Shown here: piece by piece, positions 3,878 through 61,750 of the stretch
Numbering within the stretch: position 1 is the first letter of the stretch
Layout: each line of letters begins with the position of its first letter
DNA from: Eledone cirrhosa
Taxonomy: Eukaryota
Assembly: GCA_964016885.1 (NCBI GenBank)
Contig: OZ024744.1
Span: 34,472,001 to 34,536,000 of the forward strand
Length of the DNA stretch: 64,000 bases
Direction: 5' to 3'
Program-made: the position numbers and the translations under genes
The notes under the pieces: model-generated
What the model saw: the letters and a program-made list of their open reading frames with translations, nothing else
What the model was told of the DNA's origin: nothing
The model's database searches: none

Positions 3878-6800
3878 ATGCCACGGCGAAAAAGATGCCT
3901 ACTTGGTAGATCTTCAGCTTCAGCTTTAAAAATGAAAAGAAGACGGTTGGAAGAAACGCCACAAATGACTCAATCCAGAAGAACTCACGAAGCTTCCCTT
4001 AGAGCTCTTGCAAGAGCTGCGACTGAAGATGGAGAACGTTCAAAACGACTAGACAGATTATTCCGCCAAAAGAAAAATGCTGAAGCAACTGCTATTGCAC
4101 GAGCTGCAGAAAACGAAACAACGTTCGCTGCGACAGCAACGAAATGCTGCATCAACTTCTGCTGCTCGAAATGCAGAAAACGATGCTCAACGCTCACTGC
4201 GAGAGAAAAGAAATGCAGAGGCAACTGCTATTACACGAGCTGCGGAAACTGAAACACAACGTTTGCTGCGACAACAAAGAGATGCTGCATCAACTTCTGC
4301 TACACGCGCTAGAGAAACCGTTGAACACCGACAACAACGGCTGGGCGAGAACGCACGTCGCAGAGCTTCTGCACGGGGTCTTTCAAAGCCTTGCAGATCA
4401 CGGTGGTCGCTTAAGGCATTTAACTATGACCCAAACGATAGTTATGAGACGCACCCAGATATCCAAATTGGTTCTATGTCTACAATTTGCCCGCTTTGCA
4501 ATGCTAAGAAATGGCCAGAGGAAGCTAAAGGAATGTGCTGCGCCAATGGTAAAGTCAAACTGCCCCTTCTTCAGGACCCCCCTCAGCCGTTGAAGTTCCT
4601 ACTGACAGGCGCGACGTCGGACTCGAGAAAATTTCTTCGTGAAATTGTCAGTACAACTGCGCCTTCCAAATGACCTCCTTCGGATCAAACATTGTCAATG
4701 AAGGTGGATTTATGCCTACTTTCAAAGTACAAGGGCAGGTTTACCACAGGATCGGATCTGTGGCAAATGCAGAGCACAACTTCCTTCAGATTTACTTCAT
4801 TGCTGACTACAGAGAACAGGCAGAGAGACGGAAAGCCGTTTCACCCAAAACCAACCCAGAGCTGCTAATTCAACTTCAAGAAATGCTGCATGCGAACAAC
4901 AGTTACGTGCTTAGCTTCAAATACACCCTGGAAAATGCACCTTTAAACAACTTCAACTTGGTTCTCAATGCTGAAGAAAGACCACCCTGAGAGGATGCCG
5001 GTCGCTACAATCTACCCGTATGCAATAAAGTTGCTATAGTCCTCCATTGTGATCAACACAACAGAAGAGATGTTGTTCTTAAACGTCGTGACAACACCCT
5101 TCAACTGATCAGTAAGATACACAGATCCTACGATGCACTGATGTATCCACTTCTCTTTCCGCATGGTGAAAACGGATACCACACCACAATTCCGCAGTTC
5201 AACCCACTGGCACCTGACCAACCTACCAATAAGACAGTGTCTTGCATGCAATTCTATGCCTACCACTTCATGGTCTGCGACAACTGCTTTAACCACCTTC
5301 ATCGTTCACAACAACTATTCAACCAATTTGCTGTAGACATGGCCGCGAAAATGGAGACTGAACGACTGTGCCTCATAAGATTAAACCAGACAAAACTACG
5401 CTGCGACGATTACATTCACCTACGTGATGGAATGAACAATAATGAAAACCCAGATAACATTGGAAAAGATTGCATTTTACCTTCAACCTTCGAAGGAAGT
5501 CCCCGTTGTGTGTATTCAAGAACCCAGGACGCGATGACGTATGTGCGCGTGTACGGCAACCCAGACCTATTTATTACTTTTACAGGCAATCCTTCGTGGC
5601 AAGAAATTGCCCATGAACTCCTTCCAGGACAACAGCCCAGCGGTCGCCATGACCTCTCATCCAGAGTCTTCGAGCTAAAAGTATACAAACTAATGGACCT
5701 TATCACAAAGGGCCAGGTATTTGGACGTGTGCAATGTTACATGTACACAATTGAATGGGAGAAGCGGGGGACTCCCCCATGCTCACATTTTTATTTGGTT
5801 GTCGACAAAAATCAGAGCAGACGACATCGATAAGATTATATCCGCAGACCTCCTAAACCCGCAAACTGACAAAACCCTATTTGACAGGTTACGGCGCACA
5901 TGGTTCACGGTCCTTGTGGACGTGTCTTCAAATCTAACTCCCCGTGTTTGAACAACGGTATTTACTCCAAAAAATACCCAAAAGCATTCCTTCGCGAAAC
6001 TCAAACTGCTGATGACGGATACCCATCATACAGACGAAGGAGCCCTGAGGACGGAGGATTAACAGCACTGGTTGGAAAACATGAAATTGACAACCGATGG
6101 ATTGTACCGTACTGCCCATTACTACTCAAGGCGTTCAACTCCCATATAAATGTTGAATGGTGCAACTCTATTAAATCAATCAAATATGTCTGCAAATATA
6201 TAAATAAGGGCCCGGATTCCGCCATGTTCGGGCTTAAAGAAGAAAACAAACGGGATGAAGTTGCACAGTACCAATCAGCACAATATATAAGTACCAGGGA
6301 GGCCTTTTGACGAATTTACCGTTTCTCAATGCACAGAAGACACCCTGCCGTCCAACAGCTTTCTATGCACCTGGAAAACGGCCAAAGAGTGTACTATACA
6401 AAATAAACAGCTTTTCTGAGGGCTCTGCAACCAAGGAACACAACTCTTCCTGCATTCTTTCAACTATGTCAAGGCGACGCATTCGCTCGCACTTTACTGT
6501 ATCCCCAAGTCCCCTCTTTCTACAAATGGGAAAAATATTCATGGAAGCCAAGAATCAAAGGTGAAAGCGTTGATGGTCATCCGGATTTTAACTTTGACAG
6601 CTGCCTGGCGCGAGTTTACACAGTGCCTCTCATCTACCAAGAATGTTACTACCTGCGTATGCTTCTCCATGACGTAAGAGCACCAACCAGTTTTCAACAC
6701 CTAAGAACTATTGATGGCCAAATTTGGGACGACATGTACAAAGAGGCCTACTTTAGGCGTGGACCACTGGAAGATGGTGCTCAGTGGGATGCCACTTTGG

Positions 6801-8512
6801 CAGAAGCAGTTGTTTCACAAATGCCATACAGCCTTAGGAAGACTTTTGCTGTCTTACTGTACATTTGTGAATTGCCCGATCCTTCCTTCTTGTGGCTCAA
6901 GTACAGAGATGACCTCTCTGAGGACTTCAGACATCAAGCACAATTACAACTTCCTGACATGGAAGTAGGCTTCACAGATGAAATCTACAACAAAGCACTT
7001 ATTGGAATTGAAAATATGGTTGCTGCAATGGGTGGGAATGCACTGCAGACATATGGCCTGCCCCAAACCAACAGAACAGGCTCCGACGTCATTTTCGCAG
7101 AAATACTTCGGGAACGATCCTACGACACTGACAGATTGGCTACATATGTCACTGAATATGAACCAATGCTGCTGCAGGAACAGGAACGAGCATATAACAC
7201 TATTGCTGACTGTGTCCACCATCGTACGGGAGGAATCTTTTTCTTGGGCGCCCCTGGAAGCACAGGGAAGACTTTTGTCATACGGCTTCTCCTTGCCAAG
7301 GTTCGACAACACAGACACATAGCACTTGCTGTTGCATCTTCCGGTATTGCAGCAACCTTGCTTCCTAGGGGCAGGACAGCACATTCTGCCTTCACAATAT
7401 GACAGCAAATGACACACCCTGCTGTAATATTACCAAAGGATCAATAAAGGCAGAACTGCTTAAAAGGTGTGAACTTATAATTTGGGACGAATGTACCATG
7501 GCTCATAAAGGAGCTTTGGAGGCACTGGACCGGACTTTAAGAGACATAAGAGATTCCCAGGATCCCATGGGAGGCGTGATTGTCCTTTTATCCGGAGATT
7601 TTAGACAAACCCTCCCTGTTATTCCCAAAGGAACAATGGCTGATGCTATTCGAGCATGCTTAATGTCATCTCTGATTTGGCGTTGTCACAACATTAACGC
7701 TCTCTACGAACATGAGAGCTCGGATGCTTGGTGACCAAGTGTCATCAGATTTTGCTACCAACCTATTGACACTTGGAAACGGCAAAGTGCCACTTGATGA
7801 AGATGAAAAAATCTCCCTTGAACCGGTCTGCACTTTAGTCGACAGTGCTGACGACTTGACAGGTGCAGTATTCCCTGAGTTGAGCACTAACTACCAAAAT
7901 CCAAACTGGCTGTGCGAAAGGGCAATACTGGCTCCGAAAAATGAGACTGTCGACAAAATCAATGGACAACTGCTTAAGTCTCTTCCTACAGCTTCGTGTA
8001 CATACAAGTCCATCGATACAGTCACAGACCCCATTAACTACCCAATTGAGTTTCTTAACTCATTGAACCCCTCCGGGTTGCCATCTCATCGATTGGAACT
8101 TAAGCAAGGATGCCCAATTATGCTTTTGAGGAATCTACACACACCAAAACTCTGCAACGGCACCCGCCTTACAGTAAATAGACTAACGCAAAACTTGATC
8201 GAGGCGACGATTCTCTCGGGGTGTAGAAAGGGGGAAAATGTTTTTATCCCAAGGATACCCCTTTGTCCGTCAACATCAGAGATCCCCTTTTCATTTAGGA
8301 GGCTCCAATTTCTTGTTCGTTGTAGTTTCGCTATGACGATAAATAAGTCTCAGGGGAAAACATTGTCCGTCGCGGGAATAAACCTAGAAGAGCCTTGCTT
8401 TTCACACGGTCAGCTATACGTTGGATGTTCCAGAGTGGGAAGCAAAAGAAACCTTTATGCATTTGCTCCAAACGGTAAAACCACAAACATTGTGTACCAA
8501 GAAGTTCTGTAA
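3878..8512 (+). pseudogene. Helitron RepHel transposase (Zn finger, HUH Rep, PIF1-like SF1 helicase) with multiple frameshifts and stops
   Basis: CPLCNAKKW..MCCANGK; Rep motifs PDLFITFT, IEWEKRG/LPHAH, KYVCKYINKG; helicase motifs GAPGSTGKT, IIWDECTM, GDFRQTLPVI, FAMTINKSQG, FSHGQLYVGCSRV, spread over consecutive ORF fragments. Confidence 0.95.
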
Positions 8513-13951: not shown

Positions 13952-16480
13952 CGTGTGCGTGTGTGTGTTATTATACGTCCGTACGAAACTAAGAAGAAAT
14001 ATGTGTATATATGTAAGTAAAAGAGTGTGTGCTTGTAAGTACGAAGCTACGAGCAAGAGTATGTTAATATAAGGGTGTGTATATGTGTATACAGAGATGT
14101 GAAGGGAAAAATGGAGTGTGCATATTTAGTCGGTCTGAACTAGTTGTATGAAAAGATTTTTATGATCATGAGAGAGCGATAGGAATCTAGGGGTGAATGT
14201 ACAAGCGCGTGTGATAATGGACGAGGTATTAAAGAAATTGAGGAGGTGAGTTGATTCCATGAGGGAAATAGGACCCAAGCCGGTGAATCAGACTCTGTTC
14301 AGTCCTGGTACGCGAGGCCTGTGATCCATGATGTTAAAGGACATCCAGGACTGAGACATGTAGGGAAGAATGACCAGGAGAACAGAAATAAAGGGCGACA
14401 GGAGTATCCATACCGAGTTGTATGTCCCTCAAATGCTCAGCAAAACGGTCCGCCGTACGGCGTCCCATTTATCCGATGTTTAAAGACCCGCAAAGGGAAC
14501 ACCGGAGGGCATAGACAACGTACGTGGATGTTCACGTGAAAGAGTGGCAGATACGGAAAGACCCGTTAGGGCCTGTAAGAGTGGTGAGGGTGGAAATAAA
14601 GGGACAAGTGTTGCAGCGGGGACGAGAACAAGGATAAGAGCCGGGTGGAGTCGTGGGAGAGGACGAGAAGGACCTGCGTACAAGGAGGTCGTGGAGGTTG
14701 CAGGTGTACTTAGATGCAGTAATGGGTGCGTTTGGAAAAAGCGAGAAGTGACGGAAATAGGATATGGAGTGTTTGGTGAGAGTTGGATGGAAGAAGGTGA
14801 AGTCGAGGTAAGAGTCGTAGTCTGTTGGTTTATAGAAGATGGAAGTAGAGAGGGTGTGGTGAGAGTAATTGATAGATAGATAGATATCTAGAAAAGGGAC
14901 AGAAGAATCGGAGACGGAAGTGGTGAAGGTGAGAGCAGGATGGAAAGATAGGACAAAAGATAGAAAACAGTCGAGGTGTTCTCGTTATAGAGAGGTGGTG
15001 CCGATACAGTCGTCGATATAACGACCGTATAGCTCAGGAGTCGGTCCAGCGTACTGGGGGAAGATCTGGGCTTCGACGTAGCCAACAAACAAGTTGGCAT
15101 ATTTTGGTCCCATTTAGGTTCCCATCGCTACTCCAGACACCTGCTGATAGAATTGCCCCGAAAAGGATAAGCGATTGAGAGTCAGAACAAGCTCAGTCAG
15201 ACGGGGAAGAATGGTAGTGCTGGGGTAAGGGGTGGTGTAAGGCTAAACAATGCTGGAGAGCGCGGAGACCGTCATCATCAGGGATGACGGTATAGAGGGA
15301 GGTGATGTCCAGGGTAAAGAGAAGGGGAGAGGAGCCAGGAGGGAAGGAGAAGGAGTTGAAGAGCCTAATGGCATGATTGGTATCCTGGATGTGGGAGGGA
15401 AGATTGCCGACCAACAGGGCGAGGATGGTGTCTAAATATTCAGAAATTATCTCGGTGGGGCAGTTGCACGTAGAAACGATAGAACGGCCAGGATTATTTT
15501 GTTTGTGTATTTTGGGGAGGAGGTAGATGGAGGGTGTCCGAGGGGTGCGTACAATAAGGTTGGTGGCTGTGAGGGGTAGGTGAGATGAGGAGATGAGCTG
15601 GTCGATGGTGGAGGACACGAGTTGTTGGTAGCCAGCAGTGGGGTCGGAGAATAAAGGACGGTAAAAAAGGGTATTGTGAAGCTGGCGGAGAGCCTCAGCC
15701 CTATAGGGGTCAAGGCTCCAAACCACCACATCGCCACCTTTGTCAGCGGGTTTGATGACAATGTCATCGCGACGCCGAAGGTTGCGAAGAGCGGAGAGCT
15801 CAGTCCGCGTGATGTTGGAGTGACGAGAATGCTGGTGGAAACGGAACCGATTCCCAGTACGCCGTCAAGTATCGACAAAGGAGTCGAGGGTGCTGAACTG
15901 GCCAAAGCTCGGTGTCCAATGTGATTGCCAGCGACTGAGACGAGTGAAGTCATCCGTCTGTGTCGATGATGGCGTGTCGTGAAAAATAGCTTTTAGCTTT
16001 AATCGAGGGAAGAATCTTTCAATCTCGGCACGTGTACGGAACTCGTCGCAGGTAGATGTGGTTAGTATAAAATACAAACCACGGGCGAGGAGGGGGCGCT
16101 CAGCTTCGGAGAGTGGTAGGTGCTGGGGTATGATGACTACAGTGCAGGGACGTGAGGGCGTGAAAGGGGCGGAGGCGGAGGGTTTAAGGTGGATAAGCAA
16201 AGCGTGTGCAGATTCAGTGGTGGGGAGAAGAAAGGGGGTGGTAGGTGACGGGATGGAGGGGTTAGGGTTGGAGGTGAAATTAGTATGGGTGGTGACGTCA
16301 GGCGGGGAGCGGAGTGAGTGGAGTTTGTTGTTTTTTATGGAAGTGAAGGAAATTGAAGAGGAGGCGATTGAGATAAAGGATGAATTGGATAAGGGATTCG
16401 GCGAGGGTGGGGGTGGGGGGTGGCAAGTAGGGGAGAGATGGAGGCAGGCCTTGGGGAGATGTATCTATATCACACACACA
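13520..16480 (-). mobile_element. Degenerate PLE (Neptune-like) with RT, GIY-YIG, 3' UTR and pLTR
   Basis: IYLLPKIHK..PGRSIVSTCNCPTE, LFTLDITSLYTVIP, GVAMG region near 15120-15135, GIY-YIG near 14400-14520. Degenerate HHR at 13603-13641 (CUUGUGA-A-GGAC/GUCC-GAAACGUC). Confidence 0.85.
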
Positions 16481-17600: not shown

Positions 17601-17629
<29 letters not shown>

Positions 17630-17735
17630 CTAATTTCTGCCGGACCGGCAACCGCTCTTTCAAACCAGTTCCTGTACACAGCTAAGTATTCTATAAGTCT
17701 CTAGCTGTGTCATTCTCGATAAAAGCACTGGATAT

Positions 17736-17778
17736 GTAGTCCTGATGAATTCTAACAAGAATGAAACGCGTAGATTAC
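17736..17778 (+). ncRNA. Minimal type I HHR (family A, copy 1)
   Basis: GUAGUC-CUGAUGA-AUUCU-AACA-AGAAU-GAAA-CGCG-UA-GAUUAC. Cleavage predicted after A17772. Confidence 0.9.
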
Positions 17779-18045
17779 TTCCCTTGCTTTTATCGAGAAT
17801 CTAATTGTAATACGTGACGTATTCTATTCTATAGCGATTAGGTCTTCAAAATGTTTATTATAAACATACAGAATATTTTCGAATATTCTATGTCTATATT
17901 CACATATATATCGCTATTTCAGAGCATTTATTCCAATTTCTAATTTCTGCCGGACCGGCAACCGCTCTTTCAAACCAGTTCCTGTACACAGCTAAGTATT
18001 CTATAAGTCTCTAGCTGTGTCATTCTCGATAAAAGCACTGGATAT

Positions 18046-18088
18046 GTAGTCCTGATGAATTCTAACAAGAATGAAACGCGTAGATTAC
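18046..18088 (+). ncRNA. Minimal type I HHR (family A, copy 2)
   Basis: Identical to 17736-17778. Confidence 0.9.
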
Positions 18089-18355
18089 TTCCCTTGCTTT
18101 TATCGAGAATCTAATTGTAATACGTGACGTATTCTATTCTATAGCGATTAGGTCTTCAAAATGTTTATTATAAACATACAGAATATTTTCGAATATTCTA
18201 TGTCTATATTCACATATATATCGCTATTTCAGAGCATTTATTCCAATTTCTAATTTCTGCCGGACCGGCAACCGCTCTTTCAAACCAGTTCCTGTACACA
18301 GCTAAGTATTCTATAAGTCTCTAGCTGTGTCATTCTCGATAAAAGCACTGGATAT

Positions 18356-18398
18356 GTAGTCCTGATGAATTCTAACAAGAATGAAACGCGTAGATTAC
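18356..18398 (+). ncRNA. Minimal type I HHR (family A, copy 3)
   Basis: Identical to 17736-17778. Confidence 0.9.
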
Positions 18399-18520
18399 TT
18401 CCCTTGCTTTTATCGAGAATCTAATTGTAATACGTGACGTATTCTATTCTATAGCGATTAGGTCTTCAAAATGTTTATTATAAACATACAGAATATTTTC
18501 GAATATTCTATGTCTATATT

Positions 18521-18583
<63 letters not shown>

Positions 18584-18588
<5 letters not shown>

Positions 18589-19627
18589 ATTAAATAAATG
18601 GAAAACTATATTTATAAAACCATATTTATTTCATTATATATATTTCGGGGATATCATATTAACAATATGCTATGCCTTCATCAGACAAAATACAATATAA
18701 ACAGTTTTATAGATAAATATATTCGACATACCGTAATAAACATCAACTTCATTTGAAGAGGTTCACTCTAGCAGTGAAAATACAGAGAGAAAGAAAGAGA
18801 GAGAGAAAAGAGGGAAATAAGAAAGAAAGAAAGACAAAACGAAGAAAAGGAAGAAAAAGAAGAAAAAGAAGAAATGCATGGGACAAAATAGAGAGATGGA
18901 AAAATAGATAAAGCGAAGAGCTTCATGTAAAGAGACCGAAAGAGATATATATATATATATAGAGAGAGAGGAAATAGAGATAGATACATATATAAATATA
19001 GATATAGAAAAATTATAGATATAGAAAAATTAGGTAGTGGGAGGTCATTTTGAGTAAGTGTATCAATGATGCATTTATTTATTTATTTATTTATTTATTT
19101 ATATATTTAGCTCAAGTATTAATGTAAGGGAGATATATAGAGAGATATAGAGAGATATAGAGAGATATAGAGAGAGAAAAATTTAAAATTTAAAATTTTT
19201 CTATATCTATATTTATATATGTATCTATCTCTATTTCCTCTCTCTCTCTCTATATATATATATATCTCTTTCGGTCTCTTTACATGAAGCTCTTCGCTTT
19301 ATCTATTTTTCCATCTCTCTATTTTGTCCCATGCATTTCTTCTTTTTCTTCTTTTTCTTCCTTTTCTTCGTTTTGTCTTTCTTTCTTTCTTATTTCCCTC
19401 TTTTCTCTCTCTCTTTCTTTCTCTCTGTATTTTCACTGCTAGAGTGAACCTCTTCAAATGAAGTTGATGTTTATTACGGTATGTCGAATATATTTATCTA
19501 TAAAACTGTTTATATTGTATTTTGTCTGATGAAGGCATAGCATATTGTTAATATGATATCCCCGAAATATATATAATGAAATAAATATGGTTTTATAAAT
19601 ATAGTTTTCCATTTATTTAATATTGTA
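18584..19627. repeat. Inverted repeat with ~430-bp arms, each with a type I HHR (18627-18692 minus, 19518-19583 plus)
   Basis: Arms are near-exact reverse complements. UAUUUUGU-CUGAUGA-AGGCAUAGCAUAUU..AAUAUGAUAUCCCC-GAAA-UAUAUA-UA-AUGAAAUA. Confidence 0.85.
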
Positions 19628-19717
19628 AATATACTCCAAGTATTTGTCGAGTGCTTTTATATCAGTTATAAATATTTACTAGTTGTAACCCAACAATTTT
19701 AAATATAACTTTACATG

Positions 19718-20028: not shown

Positions 20029-20134
20029 CACCAACAATGTCGAGCATAATAAGAAGAAGCTTTATAAGTTTTTTAAAAGCTATAACCTTTCGATCACGAT
20101 AGATAGAAATGATAGAGCGGTCAACTTTTTAGAT

Positions 20135-21604
20135 GTGACTTTGGACTTGGTCACCAATAGTTTTAAACCCTTCCATAAGCCTAATGAAATACTTTCCTAT
20201 GTTAGTCCCAATTCTAACCACCCCAAATCTATGATAAGCTCTATAATTAAGGGTGTATCTAATAGGATTTCCACACTCTCTAAGGACGTAGGAACATTTA
20301 ATGAACATGCGGAGTACTATAATAATGCCCTAGCAAATTCCGGTTACTCTAGTAAAATACATTATAATAATAGTAACCTTAGAAAGTCTCCGCTTATTTT
20401 TAATAATAATAACATAATATCACATAACATGGCCATGAATGGGAGTAGGAAGCATAATAACCGTAAAAATTACATAGGTGTATCTGAACCCATCCATAAG
20501 TTAACCCACGGGACTCGTAATAGTGAATATAATACCTCTAGGAAACAAGTCGAACCCTCTGAGCGCTCACTCATTGGTGATAATTTTGCCGGATCTTATT
20601 CTAATAATGTTGCTTCTACTGATCCTATTATTGGCCCTAATCCTTTTGATGGGATTCCGGACAGCGGCAGATCTACTGGAGGTAGAAACGGTAATAGACT
20701 TAATGGAATTTTGGCTGATTCTAAGAATGCGGTTTTAACTAATCCTTGTAGTAACCCTAGTCTCGATGGTGGGATATTTGATAATGGTAGAGTCGGTAAG
20801 AATAAAAATAGAAGGCGATTAAATACTTATTTTAACCCGCCATATAATCAGGAAGTATTAACTAATATCCCTAGGTCTTTCTTTTCTATCTTAGAGAAAA
20901 ATGTCCCCCCTTCTCATAAATACCATAGTATTTTTAATAAAAATGTTATTAAACTTTCATTCTCTACCACCCCTAATATTAGTTCTCATTTAGCTAGCAC
21001 TAACAATAGGAAAATTAGGGATGGATTCTCCTCTCTACATACTACTAGTCTGAACAGATCTGGAAATGCATTACCACCAGAACAGACCTTATCTAATAGC
21101 AATCCTACGTGTAATGCATCACCACTTGAGCCAACCAATAACACCCGGAAGTGCAACTGTAGAGTGAGTGCTAACTGCCCTTTAAACGGTAACTGCCTCT
21201 TTAAGAACATTGTCTATGCTTGCATAGTTATAACTAATTCCTCTAATAGAACTTATATCGGCTCTACATCTAACACTTTTAAGACTAGGTTTAACTCTCA
21301 TATCTCTAATTTCAAACATGTTAAGTTTAAGAATTCTACTTCTTTAGCACATTATATCTGGGATCTTAAGGGGGCTAATATACCATATAGCCTTAACTGG
21401 CGTTTAGTAGCACGCTCTAATAACCTTTCTACACATACTAAATTTTGTAATCTCTGTATCCTCGAGACACACTCTATAATTTTCTCTAGCGAATCCTTAC
21501 TTAATAGAAAGTCTGAGATATTCTCTTCTTGCCCCCACGCTATTTCTAATTCATACTTTTATTATAAACCTAAAGGTTCTAGTAGTACAAATTGTATCCA
21601 TTAG
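20135..21604 (+). CDS. PLE RT C-terminus and GIY-YIG endonuclease, open over 489 aa
   Basis: FLDVTLDL..FHKP..SNHP; YFNPPYN; CNCR..CPLNGNC; IVY..TYIGSTSNTFKTRFNSH; CNLCILE; LLNRKSEIFSSCPH. Confidence 0.9.
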   Translation: MTLDLVTNSFKPFHKPNEILSYVSPNSNHPKSMISSIIKGVSNRISTLSKDVGTFNEHAEYYNNALANSGYSSKIHYNNSNLRKSPLIFNNNNIISHNMAMNGSRKHNNRKNYIGVSEPIHKLTHGTRNSEYNTSRKQVEPSERSLIGDNFAGSYSNNVASTDPIIGPNPFDGIPDSGRSTGGRNGNRLNGILADSKNAVLTNPCSNPSLDGGIFDNGRVGKNKNRRRLNTYFNPPYNQEVLTNIPRSFFSILEKNVPPSHKYHSIFNKNVIKLSFSTTPNISSHLASTNNRKIRDGFSSLHTTSLNRSGNALPPEQTLSNSNPTCNASPLEPTNNTRKCNCRVSANCPLNGNCLFKNIVYACIVITNSSNRTYIGSTSNTFKTRFNSHISNFKHVKFKNSTSLAHYIWDLKGANIPYSLNWRLVARSNNLSTHTKFCNLCILETHSIIFSSESLLNRKSEIFSSCPHAISNSYFYYKPKGSSSTNCIH

Positions 21605-24189: not shown

Positions 24190-26470
24190 CGTTAGCGTAT
24201 AATGTGGGGCTGTAATACAGGAAAGTTTTGTGCAATTTATGTTTACAAGTCGAAATTGCCTCAGACTTTTTGTTTAAGATGTGGTCATTGGCGTAGAGTA
24301 TTCCAGGGCTTCAGCCGCGCAGAGGTCACATGGTCTTTTATTTCCATTATACGATCTAGCCTAAGCTAGGATGTCCCAGTGTAAATTATATTGGGTGTGG
24401 TTGTCTTTTAGACTCCAGATATAAGCTGAAAGTGACGTCATATTCCTTCTTAAACGGTTAAGAAAAGAATGGGTATGCATGTAAAGACGCTGCTTGAATC
24501 TATTGGCGGTTAACCCCATGTAGACCCTACGGGACGTGGGTGTTTCAACCTTACAATGTTACTAGAGAGGCCTTTCCCCGATAGGGGACAGTCAACCTGA
24601 TTCCTACAATTACAGTTAGTATTAGCTACAGGGTTGCACGTGTTCCTACGGCTAGGTAATTTAGCTAAATTTGAAGCTGTGATGTCATGTGCAAGGTTAG
24701 GAGTTGTAGAGTAAGAACTTTTAATGGTATTTCTATTAAAAATTTTACTATATTTATGTGCTGGGGGAAATGCTTCATAATAAGGGAGAGAAAGATCTTA
24801 GCTAATGGTCTGGCCACCTCCATATTATATGGTGGGTTATACCATATAATGCGTCGGGATCTATTTTTCCTAGGTCTATTCTCATACTCGGTATATGCTA
24901 CCTTATCGACAAATCCTCTCCGAGCAAGAGCTTCATTGTAATATGTGGAATGGTCGGTGAAAATATGCTCGTTTGTAGATAGACGGGAAAGCCTCAAAGA
25001 GACGTTTCGTACCAGGTTCTTGGTTATGCTGGCAGGATGGTTAGAATGCTTACTTATGTAATTAATCGTATCATTCGGCTTTCTATACGACAAATTGAGG
25101 GTAACGTCGAAGTAATTAACGACCGCGAGGTTGGCCTCAACCTGTATGGAGAGGTTGAAGCCTTTAAAGAAGGCTGTGAGTTCCTTTCTGAACCTGTCGC
25201 AAGCATGTGGGCCGCACTTTGTCATGGACAAATGACCGTCATCAGTGTACAAACCACCGCCCACATTGGGGAATTCTTCCTTGATAGAGAAAAGAAGGAA
25301 ATGGCCGATAAGATCAGTAACCTCCGCAGAATCGCTGGCGCCCATACTCACGTCGAATGGGGTACTATTAGATTTTTTAAATCCAAATAGAGTCGTAGAT
25401 ATTAATCACCAACTTAGGGGTATTGAGGATGACATCAACTTCGAAATCCTTAACCACTGTGAGTGTTTTAGCGAAATTGATAGCTCTAAGGAGAAGTGGT
25501 AAAGTGATGGATGAGTAGTAATTATTGATGTCGAATTGGATAAAACGGCAATGTTCCTTGTTGCATATGCCGTCGAACCAATCAATCACCGCGAAAGAAT
25601 TATTCCACAGTGCAAGAGGAGCCAAACTTCTAATTTCAGGTATAATTCTATCTAAAATCCTTTTACTAAGTTTACCTAAATCGGACTTCGTAGGGTTAAT
25701 AAGCCGAATAGAGAGGTTGTTCGGGAAATTGGATTTGTGATCCTTCAGGGTAAAAGTGGGGAGAAATAGGGTCGAGAGGTTCAGTCCGGTCCAGGATGTT
25801 GAGATCAGAGGTGATTTTAAAACCAGCATCGTTGATGTCATTAATGGCGCTCCGATTAGTTTTACGGTAATCCTTAGTTATAGCATTATGTAGCAGTTGA
25901 TGGTGAGTACTCCGCTCCATTTGATATAGATTGCCAGTTTTGTCGGAGTGGACGTGCACGGCATTAGAATCCTTAATAGAACGAATTCTATTCTTCAGGT
26001 CCTGCTGGAAGGAATTGCTCCTATACCGAAATTTGATACTCCGTATGAGTTCCAAGACATCATTTTCGAAGGGTAGCAATGCTGGGTTACTCGGAGGGTT
26101 ATTGTAGTTTTTAAACCCAAATTTATCCTGTTTGTTGTCCGCTTTTCCCTGATTATCGAAATAAAGGGCACGCCAACGCAACCTTTTAATGAACGCGTCT
26201 GTTTTCTGTATCAGGAGTTTTAGGTATGTTTTCCTGATTGGTACGGGTATGTTCTTTGTAGAAATATTCAGATGTTGTTTCTGCATGATGAATATAAGTC
26301 AATAGAGGAGATACCGTTTTCAGATAGAGCCCCCCCCCCCCCACACACACACATATATATATAGTAAAATAAAACAAGGACGAATGGTTACTCCTTCATT
26401 ACGTTTATTGGTAGGTGACGCGCGTTTCGCCGCGGATCAGCTCAAGGTTCGATCTGTATCGATCTAGCCC
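24190..26470 (-). mobile_element. Near full-length degenerate PLE (Nematis-like)
   Basis: STKNIP..FIKRLRWRA; HSDKTGNLY; TLKDHK..RLINP; FIQFDINNYYSSI; MGASDSAEVTDLIG; LYTDDG; WYNPPYN; GIY-YIG near 24250-24610. The 3' half of an HHR (GAAACGCGCGUC..AAUAAA) lies upstream at ~26404-26432. Confidence 0.9.
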
Positions 26471-36892: not shown

Positions 36893-36899
<7 letters not shown>

Positions 36900-37338
36900 A
36901 TGTAAATATAATGTATTTTGCAATACACTTTATGCTTAATTAAAAGCATTTTGAAGACCGTAAGCTATTGTTTTAAAGTAGTGACAAATTCACTCACTTC
37001 GATCTCAGCAAACAGGAGGAGATAAGCCGACATGACATGTTTCGCTTTTGTTGAAGCTTATCAAGGCCAACTACCCCGCCCGTCTGCTGAGATCAATGAT
37101 GTTATATTCTTATAGAAATCTAGCAAATAATCAGGAGCTGATTATGCAGAGCGGGGTAGTTGGCCTTGATAAGCTTCAACAAAAGCGAAACATGTCATGT
37201 CGGCTTATCTCCTCCTGTTTGCTGAGATCGAAGTGAGTGAATTTGTCACTACTTTAAAACAATAGCTTACGGTCTTCAAAATGCTTTTAATTAAGCATAA
37301 AGTGTATTGCAAAATACATTATATTTACATCCATATAT
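36893..37338. repeat. Inverted repeat with ~185-bp arms, each with a U3-A8 HHR (37025-37068 minus, 37162-37205 plus)
   Basis: GGCC-UUGAUAA-GCUU-CAACAA-AAGC-GAAA-CAUGUCAUG-UC-GGCU. Confidence 0.85.
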
Positions 37339-37361
37339 ATATTGCTATTTCAGAGCTACAA

Positions 37362-37471
<110 letters not shown>

Positions 37472-52976: not shown

Positions 52977-54004
52977 TTACACTCACGCATATTGACCTGT
53001 TTGCATGCACACGCATAAAAATGAGGATGTAAAAAAAGGGATGAAGAAAAAAAGAAAACAAAAAACCTAGATGTAAAAACACGGATATAAAGACACATAC
53101 ACATACATATATATATATATATACACGCACGCGCGCGCACATACGTAGGCGCTCGTGTACATATATAGAAAGTATACACACATTAAGGCGTTCAGACACA
53201 TAGATACAGGGTGTAAAAAACTTGAGGATAAGTATTTACAAATATAAAATTATAAGATTGGCTGCGCAAAAAAAAAAAAAAAAAAAAAATATCTGGAGTG
53301 GAAAACGCAAGTGCCTAGTTTAATCAGTTAGTGAAGAAAATAGGGAAGTAAAAAATGGAAAGTGAAGATATTAGGTAAGTGAATCGGAGAATAGCCGTAT
53401 ATACAATGGCTTTGGTGTTGCATTTACATTGTAAAGGGCATTCACTTTTGATTCTACAGGAGCAATTTTGATTTTCTCTAGGTGATTTTTTGTTGATGAT
53501 ATAGGACTCACCAAAGCCATTGTATATGCGGCTAAAGTGACAACCATCAGCAACAACCATCCAGCCACCAATGAACGATATGTGGGTATGACGCAAGACA
53601 AATTCAAAACGCATTATTACTCACATGTCGCATCCTTTCGACATCCAGAAAAAAGATTTACAACAGCTCTGGCTAGCAGAATTTGGGATTTGAAAGACCA
53701 AGGCATCCAATATAAATTGGATTGGTCAATTTTGAACCAATCTAAAGAATATGCAAGAGGAACAAGAAAATGCACGCTTTGCATAAATGAAAAATATTGG
53801 ATCTTGCAAAATAGTAAATCACCAAAGACCTGAACACAAAGACGGAAATTTTCACCAGTTGCCCACACATGAAATCACACCTGCTTTCCAGCTCATATAA
53901 ACTTAGCACACTTTCAGATACTTCTCCTCCATAAACTCTTATTATTCTCTTTATAATTACACTTTCTGATTTACTTTCATTTTTATCCTTATTATTAATT
54001 TCAT

Positions 54005-60599: not shown

Positions 60600-61750
60600 A
60601 TGTATTCTAGTTTATCCAAGTCGACATCGAAAATTACTACGCCTCTATTACCCAACCACACGTTCGGATGGGATTTGTACAGAGACCACGGACTCGTAAT
60701 TCTTATTGGATACAATAAAACCCCAGTAGTATAGACTGGGTCCGTAAACACCTCATCAAGTTCTTTCATGAATTATGTTTCAGAGTCCATACAAACGTCC
60801 ATTATCTGTGCGAACTTCTTGGACGTGGCCCTAAATTTGGAGACTGTAACACCCCTTCAGGAAACCAAACGAGAACTTACACTACATCCACCGATTTTCT
60901 AACCATCCAAGAAATATTACTAATAATTTGGTGAACAAAAATCTCCCTCCGCATATCACGCTTGTCTGCAAACGAGCAGATATTCAAGGAACACGCGCTG
61001 CACTACAACCAGGCCCTAAAAAAAGCGGATTCAAGGAGGAACTTACATGTTACCCAAACACCACTAGCTGAACCAGTAGGCAGAGCCACGGCTCACGCCA
61101 TATAACGGAGTTCAATCCTCCTCACAACGCTGAAGTCACTACATCAATTGGGAAGATCTTGCGCAGACTTCTTTATAAGCACTTCCCACCACATCGTCGC
61201 TACCACAATATCTTCAACAAAAACACTATTAAACTTTCTTAAACCACCACACCCAACTTCGCACAAATCATTGCTTCCTCTAACACAGCCAAACTCCATT
61301 CTAACAGACACAATTCGGAACTCGGTGAGGAGCCACCCATGCAACGTAATTGTTTGGATAAATCACTTTGCCCTCTTAACAACATATGCCGGCAACTTAA
61401 CATTGTTTACAAGTGAAACGTTACGACGGAACATACCTACAAATCCTCATCAGATTAACCACCTGTGAGTTCAAGGCAAGGTATTACCAACATCAATATT
61501 CGTTTAAAAAAACCCCGGCCCGGCGAAATGCTACAATATTATCTAGCCATATTTGGAACCTACACGACAAAAATATCACCTATGAAATAAAATGGAGCCC
61601 TTGTCCAAATCCACATTTTACACAGGAGGACGCTGTCAGTGCATTTTATGCTCCGAGGAAACAATCCAAATGCTGTTCGCCAAGGAACAATTATTAAATA
61701 AAAAGGATGAACTTGTTACCTCGTGCAAACACCGGATCTATAAAACATCT
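60600..61750 (+). mobile_element. Degenerate Nematis-like PLE with deletions
   Basis: FIQVDIENYYASIT, LYRDHGL, NFLDVALNL, FNPPHN, FKARYYQH..LSSHIWNL, CILCSEE..LLNKKDELVTSCKH. Confidence 0.85.

What the first reader, a model, noticed from the sequence alone, without database searches (positions are those of the whole stretch)
37261..37356. Covarying two-hairpin RNA domain shared by family A and a divergent U3-A8 hammerhead element
Seen: 17831-17925 and 37261-37356 both lie ~55 nt downstream of an HHR and share only short blocks (AUAGC, GGUCUUCAAAAUG, GCUAUUUCAGAGC). Both still fold into a closing helix AUAGC/GCUAU around two hairpins. Hairpin 1 is AUGUUUA/UAAACAU versus AUGCUU/AAGCAU (U-A to C-G swap). 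Hairpin 2 is 8 bp in both: AGAAUAUU-UUCG-AAUAUUCU versus AGUGUAUU-GCAA-AAUACAUU, a UUCG loop exchanged for a GNRA loop. Inference: selection acts on RNA structure on this strand. The invariant GGUCUUCAAA could be a recognition signal for the helper RT, a ligase or a promoter factor.
Basis: partly seen in the sequence, partly recalled or inferred. Interest (0 to 1): 0.82.

Follow-up and report, generated by a model that had tools for sequence, protein, structure and literature searches.

The report
Folded start signal in jumping RNA
Two related families of small, protein-free jumping repeats share a folded RNA segment whose hairpins survive paired mutations and which sits at the two fixed points where inserted copies end, so it likely tells a borrowed Penelope-type enzyme where to start copying; that enzyme was not identified.

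Summary
The shared segment is real: 70% identical, far above shuffles. A (310 nt) and the window element B (317 nt) are not unrelated. They are lineages of one hammerhead retrozyme superfamily, homologous over the whole unit, with at least 20,847 domain copies in this 3-Gb animal genome. Hairpins 1 and 2 are supported by compensatory changes with G·U intermediates, and a third covarying hairpin was missed. The closing helix shows no covariation, the UUCG/GNRA swap is not conserved, GGUCUUCAAA varies at its eighth base, and hairpin 1 is a minor fold in A. Insertions land in (TA)n and end at two fixed sites 34 nt apart, one in the loop of hairpin 3. Two-armed insertions use one site per arm (11 of 11 A, 15 of 17 B), the Penelope-like (PLE) tail signature. 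Best reading: the RNA platform on which a PLE enzyme starts reverse transcription. No autonomous PLE with the domain was found, and no RNA data were available. The scan noted the two-end rule and similar start-site hairpins before, on other families.

The parts
36898..37366 (.). One two-armed insertion of retrozyme lineage B (317-nt unit) inside (TA)n: an inverted arm ending at site 1 and a forward arm ending at site 2
36898..37154 (-). Inverted arm; carries a hammerhead (core at 37064) and the domain cut at site 1
37162..37205 (+). Minimal type I hammerhead with U3-A8 core (37166-37172); predicted cleavage after 37201
   Evidence: sequence; cleavage not tested
37262..37348 (+). Multibranch domain; closing helix 37262-37266 with 37344-37348 (invariant, no covariation)
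37271..37283 (+). Conserved motif GGUCUUC-N-AAAUG; first ten bases predicted mostly unpaired; eighth base A, U or G by lineage
37281..37298 (+). Hairpin 1 (6 bp); pair 37284/37295 is C-G, U-A or U·G by lineage
37301..37320 (+). Hairpin 2 (8 bp, variable tetraloop); two double changes and two G·U variants
37321..37338 (+).
37332..37333 (+). Site 1: first fixed insertion end (motif +62), at the 3' edge of the hairpin 3 loop
37333..37366 (+). 34-nt tail, present at one end of an insertion only
37366..37367 (+). Site 2: second fixed insertion end (motif +96)
17629..18523 (+). Lineage A insertion: 2.9 tandem 310-nt units in (TA)n, starting at site 2 and ending at site 1; C3-G8 hammerhead cores at 17742, 18052, 18362
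17831..17925 (+). Domain copy in A (repeated at 18141-18235; cut at site 1 in the third unit)

Best explanation
The segment is the most conserved part of a large family of hammerhead-bearing, non-coding retrozymes, and it is likely the RNA platform that a borrowed Penelope-like (PLE) reverse transcriptase-endonuclease binds in order to start copying. Shown: common descent of A and B; paired changes in the hairpins; insertion in (TA)n; two fixed ends 34 nt apart; one end per arm in two-armed insertions. Inferred: the + strand is transcribed and cut by the hammerhead into monomers or circles; a PLE protein, probably a dimer, binds the fold and the unpaired GGUCUUC-N-AAA stretch; it nicks both strands of a TA tract and primes one cDNA at site 1 (hairpin 3 loop) and the other at site 2; the two cDNAs join back to back. 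The domain would change slowly and keep its pairs because copies that lose it are no longer copied, while the hammerhead module drifts faster.
For: Ends pile up at motif +62 and +96: 33 and 18 of 97 ends in lineages with C at motif +13; 9 (+62/+64) and 10 of 44 in A; 8 and 4 of 66 in older lineages; 9 and 7 of 33 in a later, separately fetched set. Older lineages continue AUGUAUAC after site 1 yet end at the same base, so a long TA match is not what sets the end. One arm ends at each site in 11 of 11 A and 15 of 17 B two-armed insertions. In the anole PLE, RT starts at two internal sites that bound the tail, one in an AC-rich stem-loop, and the required RNA spans them (PMC11167929). Covariation: pair 26-37 C-G 27, U-A 25, U·G 6; pair 46-59 G-C 26, A-U 29; pair 45-60 U-A against A-U in A; pair 66-77 U-A 27, C-G 24 (59 rows). 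Seven random stem substitutions would keep all 14 pairs with probability 0.001-0.004. A-versus-other identity is 0.6-0.84 over the domain and the next 50 nt, against 0.36-0.58 over the hammerhead module.
Against: No autonomous PLE carrying the domain was found: not in 256 motif loci (8 had PLE coding hits, none placed as a pLTR), not in 80 PLE loci scanned with the covariance model, not in 30 further loci. The covarying pairs come from only about four ancestral events on one tree, and the helices were chosen after seeing the sequences. Hairpin 1 is a minority fold in A, the most numerous lineage. Hairpin 3 has probability 0 in A and 0.15 in B monomers, and a C·A mismatch is shared by one lineage. 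The closing helix and the right-hand anchor were used as search anchors, so their conservation is partly circular. No transcript, cleavage or binding data.
Confidence: 0.6

Rival explanations
1. The hairpins are selected as general RNA architecture (stability of the monomer or circle, or keeping the hammerhead folded), and the start sites are set by short local sequence rather than by this fold.
For: The whole unit is structured and the hammerhead stems also vary in pairs. Retrozyme circles are predicted to be highly self-paired (PMC7229834 passages). A can fold differently and is still abundant.
Against: Unpaired bases of the motif are kept across lineages whose hammerhead modules are only 40-55% alike. 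Both ends fall in or beside this domain and nowhere else in the unit.
Confidence: 0.2
2. The signal acts as DNA: the palindromes are cruciform or endonuclease-recognition sites, or are tidied by quasi-palindrome correction, so the paired changes need no selection on RNA.
For: The stems are near-perfect AT-rich inverted repeats, and A folds at least as well on the minus strand (z -3.6 against -2.5). The Drosophila Penelope endonuclease needed the tail DNA for cleavage (as summarised in PMC11167929).
Against: Lineage-wide one-sided changes in hairpins 1-2 are G·U or U·G on the hammerhead strand 3 of 3 times, with an independent G·U in an A sub-lineage. Palindrome correction would erase these. 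The count is too small to be decisive, and hairpin 3 has one shared C·A.
Confidence: 0.12
3. The conserved stretch is a promoter element, a ligase signal, an intron (GTRAGT upstream to TTTCAG in the right anchor) or the start of a 28-30-codon reading frame (CAAAATG).
For: B-type lineages carry a donor-like GTRAGT about 40 nt upstream and an acceptor-like TTTCAG in the domain. PLEs keep introns (PMC4209133). The ATG opens a 28-codon frame in B-type lineages.
Against: No precisely spliced genomic copy: one match genome-wide, not at the splice junction; this negative is weak. A lacks the donor and reads the frame shifted; 12-19% of shuffles are also open. T4-T5 runs on this strand argue against full-length Pol III transcripts (terminator rule from my own knowledge). 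The domain lies 60 nt from the ends that a ligase would join.
Confidence: 0.08

Closest known systems
Metazoan non-LTR retrozymes (Cervera and de la Pena 2020, PMC7229834; Li, Clavereau and Pollet 2026, 10.64898/2026.07.22.740005)
   Same: Tandem ~300-nt non-coding units, one type I hammerhead each, low GC, thousands of copies; proposed to be non-autonomous PLE derivatives.
   Different: The parts read describe no conserved structure outside the ribozyme and no mapped insertion ends. Here a covarying domain coincides with two fixed ends. No pLTR relative was found here, unlike the Xenopus families.
Internal initiation region of Poseidon_Ac, the anole PLE (Frangieh et al. 2024, PMC11167929)
   Same: Two start sites bounding the tail, downstream of the hammerhead; site 1 in an A/C-rich stem-loop; AT-rich targets.
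   Different: There the region lies inside the ORF of an autonomous element and the binding motif is only hypothesised within 172 nt. Here it is non-coding, multibranched and defined by covariation. No sequence comparison with Poseidon_Ac was made.
EN+ PLE insertion unit (Craig et al. 2021, PMC8557442)
   Same: Inverted 5'-truncated arm, 30-40-bp tail at one end, (TA)n bias.
   Different: No ORF; the clade of the helper is unknown.
U3-A8 minimal hammerheads of PLEs (Cervera and de la Pena 2014, PMC4209133)
   Same: Same core covariation and palindromic stem III.
   Different: Nothing essential; here the core switches between C3-G8 and U3-A8 more than once inside one superfamily.
3' stem-loops shared by SINE-LINE pairs (recalled, from no call)
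   Same: A non-autonomous RNA keeps the structure that the partner RT recognises.
   Different: Here initiation is internal and at two sites, and the shared autonomous copy has not been found.

Membership tests
Metazoan non-LTR retrozyme | Type I hammerhead in every unit | tested here: met
   Core and stems found by motif and pairing scan; Rfam HH9 match only 31 bits, below its cut-off
Metazoan non-LTR retrozyme | Short tandem units without a protein ORF | tested here: met
   310- and 317-nt periods; only a 28-30-codon frame seen from the motif ATG
Metazoan non-LTR retrozyme | Dispersed, recently mobile copies | tested here: met
   41 full-length 100%-identical matches listed on three contigs; 20,847 pattern matches, control 0
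Metazoan non-LTR retrozyme | Self-cleavage and circular RNA in vivo | not testable with these tools
   No RNA holder listed
PLE-mobilised element | Inverted 5'-truncated arm, 30-40-nt tail at one end, (TA)n target | tested here: met
PLE-mobilised element | Homology to the pLTR of an autonomous PLE | tested here: inconclusive
   None in the sampled families; the survey is partial, and the Pfam GIY-YIG model missed one intact PLE family
RT-initiation element of the Poseidon_Ac type | First start site in an A/C-rich stem-loop | tested here: inconclusive
   Site 1 is at the edge of loop ACAUUC of a covarying hairpin, but that hairpin is weak or absent in predicted A and B monomers
RT-initiation element of the Poseidon_Ac type | Binding and initiation by the PLE protein | not testable with these tools
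   needs an in vitro assay
Interchangeable cUUCGg / GNRA tetraloops | C-G closure for UUCG and a GNRA consensus kept in relatives | tested here: not met
   U-A closure in A; GCCA in 14 of 34 and GCAA in 16 of 34 copies; ACCA and ATCA also seen

The most novel reading that the evidence does not exclude
This is a naturally evolved, minimal (about 150-nt), non-coding recognition module for a Penelope-like reverse transcriptase. A multibranch fold positions the two subunits of the enzyme at two start sites 34 nt apart and so dictates the two-armed, tailed insertion. It would be the first structure-level definition of what a PLE protein recognises, the retrozyme counterpart of the SINE 3' stem-loop, and it has outlived or diverged from the autonomous element it came from.
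Probability: 0.4. Interest if true: 0.72.

Novelty: new variant of a known kind. Interest (0 to 1): 0.47.

Why it matters
How PLE proteins pick their RNA, and why they start inside it at two sites, is open: the one in vitro study narrowed binding only to a 172-nt region. That retrozymes borrow PLE enzymes is proposed, not shown. A non-coding family with natural compensatory variants and mapped ends supplies ready-made disrupt-and-rescue tests, and a probe for finding the helper. Without the partner and without RNA data it remains a well-supported candidate inside a known kind of element.

Tried and rejected
Partner search, all negative. (1) Pfam GIY-YIG over the genome gave 150 scored of 10,597 candidates; 50 were fetched, and the domain hits there were retrozymes lying beside the PLE, not its pLTR. 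(2) A protein search returned only one young family. (3) L217/L248, which carries the 5' part of the domain in a different context, is a chimera of a truncated copy between other repeats. (4) The young PLE beside A in the window has a loosely similar motif upstream of its hammerhead, but no domain hit and a tail of about 90 nt. (5) The exact 13-mer followed by other sequence occurs at background level, 27 against control 19; this test misses partners with T or G at base 8. Longer-spaced versions of the domain were duplications or TA expansions. Rfam: none of the 150 listed matches (of 251) covers 37261-37356. Expression: no RNA holder listed. Contigs of four coded runs were laid; three hold a single 340-nt A contig, as a collapsed tandem repeat or a circle would give, so it says nothing on circular RNA. 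Splicing and the small ORF are treated under the rivals. The 'circular' folds gave the same numbers as the linear ones and were not used. The last part of script 55 (all-pairs mutual information) crashed and was not rerun. R-scape is not available; the shuffle control ignores relatedness and is not a probability. MAFFT misregistered the closing helix of the two A rows in alignment A1 by one column; one search used a corrected register.

Full report
Setting. The window is G000:C28:34472001-34536000 of a 3.0-Gb animal genome, rich in (TA)n tracts and hammerhead-bearing elements. The finding compares 37261-37356 (element B) with 17831-17925 (family A).

Observation. The two segments are 67/95 identical and collinear, and none of 2000 dinucleotide shuffles reached the observed alignment score (70 against a maximum of 38). 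B's best fold is the claimed one but is not better than shuffles (z -1.1). A's best fold replaces hairpin 1 with a longer stem; hairpin 1 has probability 0.3 alone and 0.44 in the monomer.

What the elements are. A is a 310-nt tandem unit (2.9 copies in the window). B is a 317-nt unit found in arrays elsewhere, with many 100%-identical copies. The units align end to end. The pattern GGTCTTCAAAATG-N45-75-GCTATTTCAGAGC has 20,847 matches, control 0. A further 4,057 copies have T or G at base 8 of the motif. I found this variation only after looking at copies in 130 loci fetched without the motif: among the 10 non-chimeric copies base 8 was A in 3, T in 4 and G in 3. A tree of 55 rows (107 thinned to at most two per type; some rows chimeric; bootstrap not converged) shows several lineages, with A nested in an old one. 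These are non-LTR retrozymes as described in PMC7229834 (passages read) and 10.64898/2026.07.22.740005 (parts 1-3 of 5 read; supplements not seen). The U3-A8 core is published (PMC4209133, part 1 of 4 and passages).

Covariation. On 47 aligned copies (six chimeric, gapped or off-register rows of 53 left out), hairpins 1 and 2 are 98-99% paired, and RNAalifold predicts them but not the closing helix. A third hairpin (columns 63-68 with 75-80) has a U-A/C-G double change. On 59 rows with corrected register (loci L141-L196 excluded because their patterns select mutated copies), pair 26-37 was C-G 27, U-A 25, U·G 6, other 1; pair 46-59 was A-U 29, G-C 26, G·U 3, other 1; pair 45-60 was A-U in A and U-A elsewhere; pairs 43-62 and 44-61 have lineage-wide G·U. 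Shared variants kept pairing 6 of 6 times in hairpins 1-2, against 9 of 28 private changes (p 0.004), and 8 of 11 against 15 of 45 with hairpin 3 (p 0.02). The classes were defined after the fact. In 34 copies fetched later, pairs 26-37 and 46-59 had no mismatch, but these descend from the same few events. A simulation gives 0.001-0.004 for seven random substitutions keeping all 14 pairs. Against: hairpin 3 is broken at one pair in both A and B, and one lineage shares a C·A; the 5-bp closing helix never varies, was a search anchor, and its sixth pair is U·U in B; the hairpin 2 loop is free (GCAA, GCCA, ACCA, ATCA, TTCG).

Where insertions end. Counting from the first G of the motif, 3' ends against TA tracts cluster at +62 and +96. 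The counts are 33 and 18 of 97, 9 (+62/+64) and 10 of 44 in A, and 8 and 4 of 66 in older lineages, 24 of which had no TA tract; and 9 and 7 of 33 in the later set. Site 1 (37332/37333) is at the 3' edge of the hairpin 3 loop; site 2 (37366/37367) lies 10 nt past the finding. Among two-armed insertions with both outer ends in view, one arm ended at each site in 11 of 11 for A and 15 of 17 for B. Four of the 15 ran up to 10 nt past site 2; L020 had site 1 twice and L094 one truncated arm. L111, L112, L229 and L240 were not resolved, and single-armed or edge-cut loci were not counted. The window's B copy follows the rule. Inverted arm, 30-40-bp tail and TA bias are the PLE signature (PMC8557442, passages). 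In the anole PLE the two RT start sites bound the tail, one lies in an AC-rich stem-loop, and the protein-binding motif is hypothesised within 172 nt around them (PMC11167929, parts 1-2 of 4; supplement text search empty; figures not held).

Mechanism. Shown: common descent, paired changes, fixed ends, the two-arm rule. Inferred: + strand transcription, hammerhead processing, binding of a PLE protein to the fold and the unpaired motif, and priming from both nicked strands of a TA tract at sites 1 and 2. The domain and the next 50 nt are the most conserved part of the unit (A against others 0.6-0.84; hammerhead module 0.36-0.58), as expected of a trans-recognition signal. Rivals are general RNA stability, a DNA-level palindrome role, and promoter, intron, ligase or small-ORF roles; the last found no support.

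The helper. Not found. Fifty GIY-YIG loci fell into about seven EN groups, most with their own hammerhead and 3' end. A covariance model found only adjacent retrozyme copies, and otherwise scores at the level of TA-rich background, in 80 and 30 loci. Of 256 motif loci, none had the domain placed as the pLTR of a coding element; five of 30 later loci had PLE hits on the wrong strand or in the wrong place. The survey is partial: the genome holds more PLE families, and Pfam missed an intact one.

Novelty. Five literature searches listed no paper describing a conserved non-ribozyme structure at retrozyme insertion ends; subscription journals and unseen supplements could hold one. Earlier notes of this scan (unchecked AI notes) report the two-end rule for other retrozymes in this genome and start-site hairpins for Hydra- and Naiad-linked families. 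Two look-ups by sequence returned nothing. Verdict: a real, covarying and probably functional cis-domain in a known kind of element, best read as the PLE initiation platform, with partner and biochemistry open. Interest 0.47.

Noticed in passing
window 18586-19700; L398-L400: Two-armed pLTR insertion of a very young autonomous PLE (about 4-kb tandem period, open 738-codon frame elsewhere, no Pfam hit, own hammerhead, tail of about 90 nt). By eye, two similar bulged hairpins follow its two end sites. The label Hydra-type is my reading from earlier notes and protein likeness, not tested by a tree.
   Followed up: partly
L008, L031, L350: Mixed two-armed junctions without a TA tract: a B or A arm joined back to back to an arm of another hammerhead family (twice the PLE above, once another). 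Either one enzyme complex used two RNAs, or a later deletion joined them.
   Followed up: partly
window 17629-18523; L256: Single-armed insertions that begin at site 2 and end at site 1 (2 of 9 distinct forward starts at a TA tract), as if copying stopped at the second start site.
   Followed up: partly
window 17841-17844 with 17953-17956: The conserved GGUC of the motif could pair with a conserved GACC just 3' of site 2, enclosing both start sites. It appears in the unit-wide consensus fold, but no covariation was seen.
   Followed up: partly
tree: A is nested on a long branch inside an old U3-A8 lineage, and the hammerhead core switches between C3-G8 and U3-A8 more than once.
   Followed up: yes
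window 4991-8509: Broken Helitron (Helitron_like_N, PIF1 and Pif1_2B hits).
   Followed up: no
window 833, 23591, 28124, 31376, 40941, 44412, 56412: Further hammerhead-like cores, most from PLE or retrozyme families seen in other loci; none carries this domain.
   Followed up: partly
window 14661-15798, 20054-21574, 25383-26262, 53507-53806, 60844-61428: Fragments of several other PLE ORFs that Pfam did not detect where tested.
   Followed up: no
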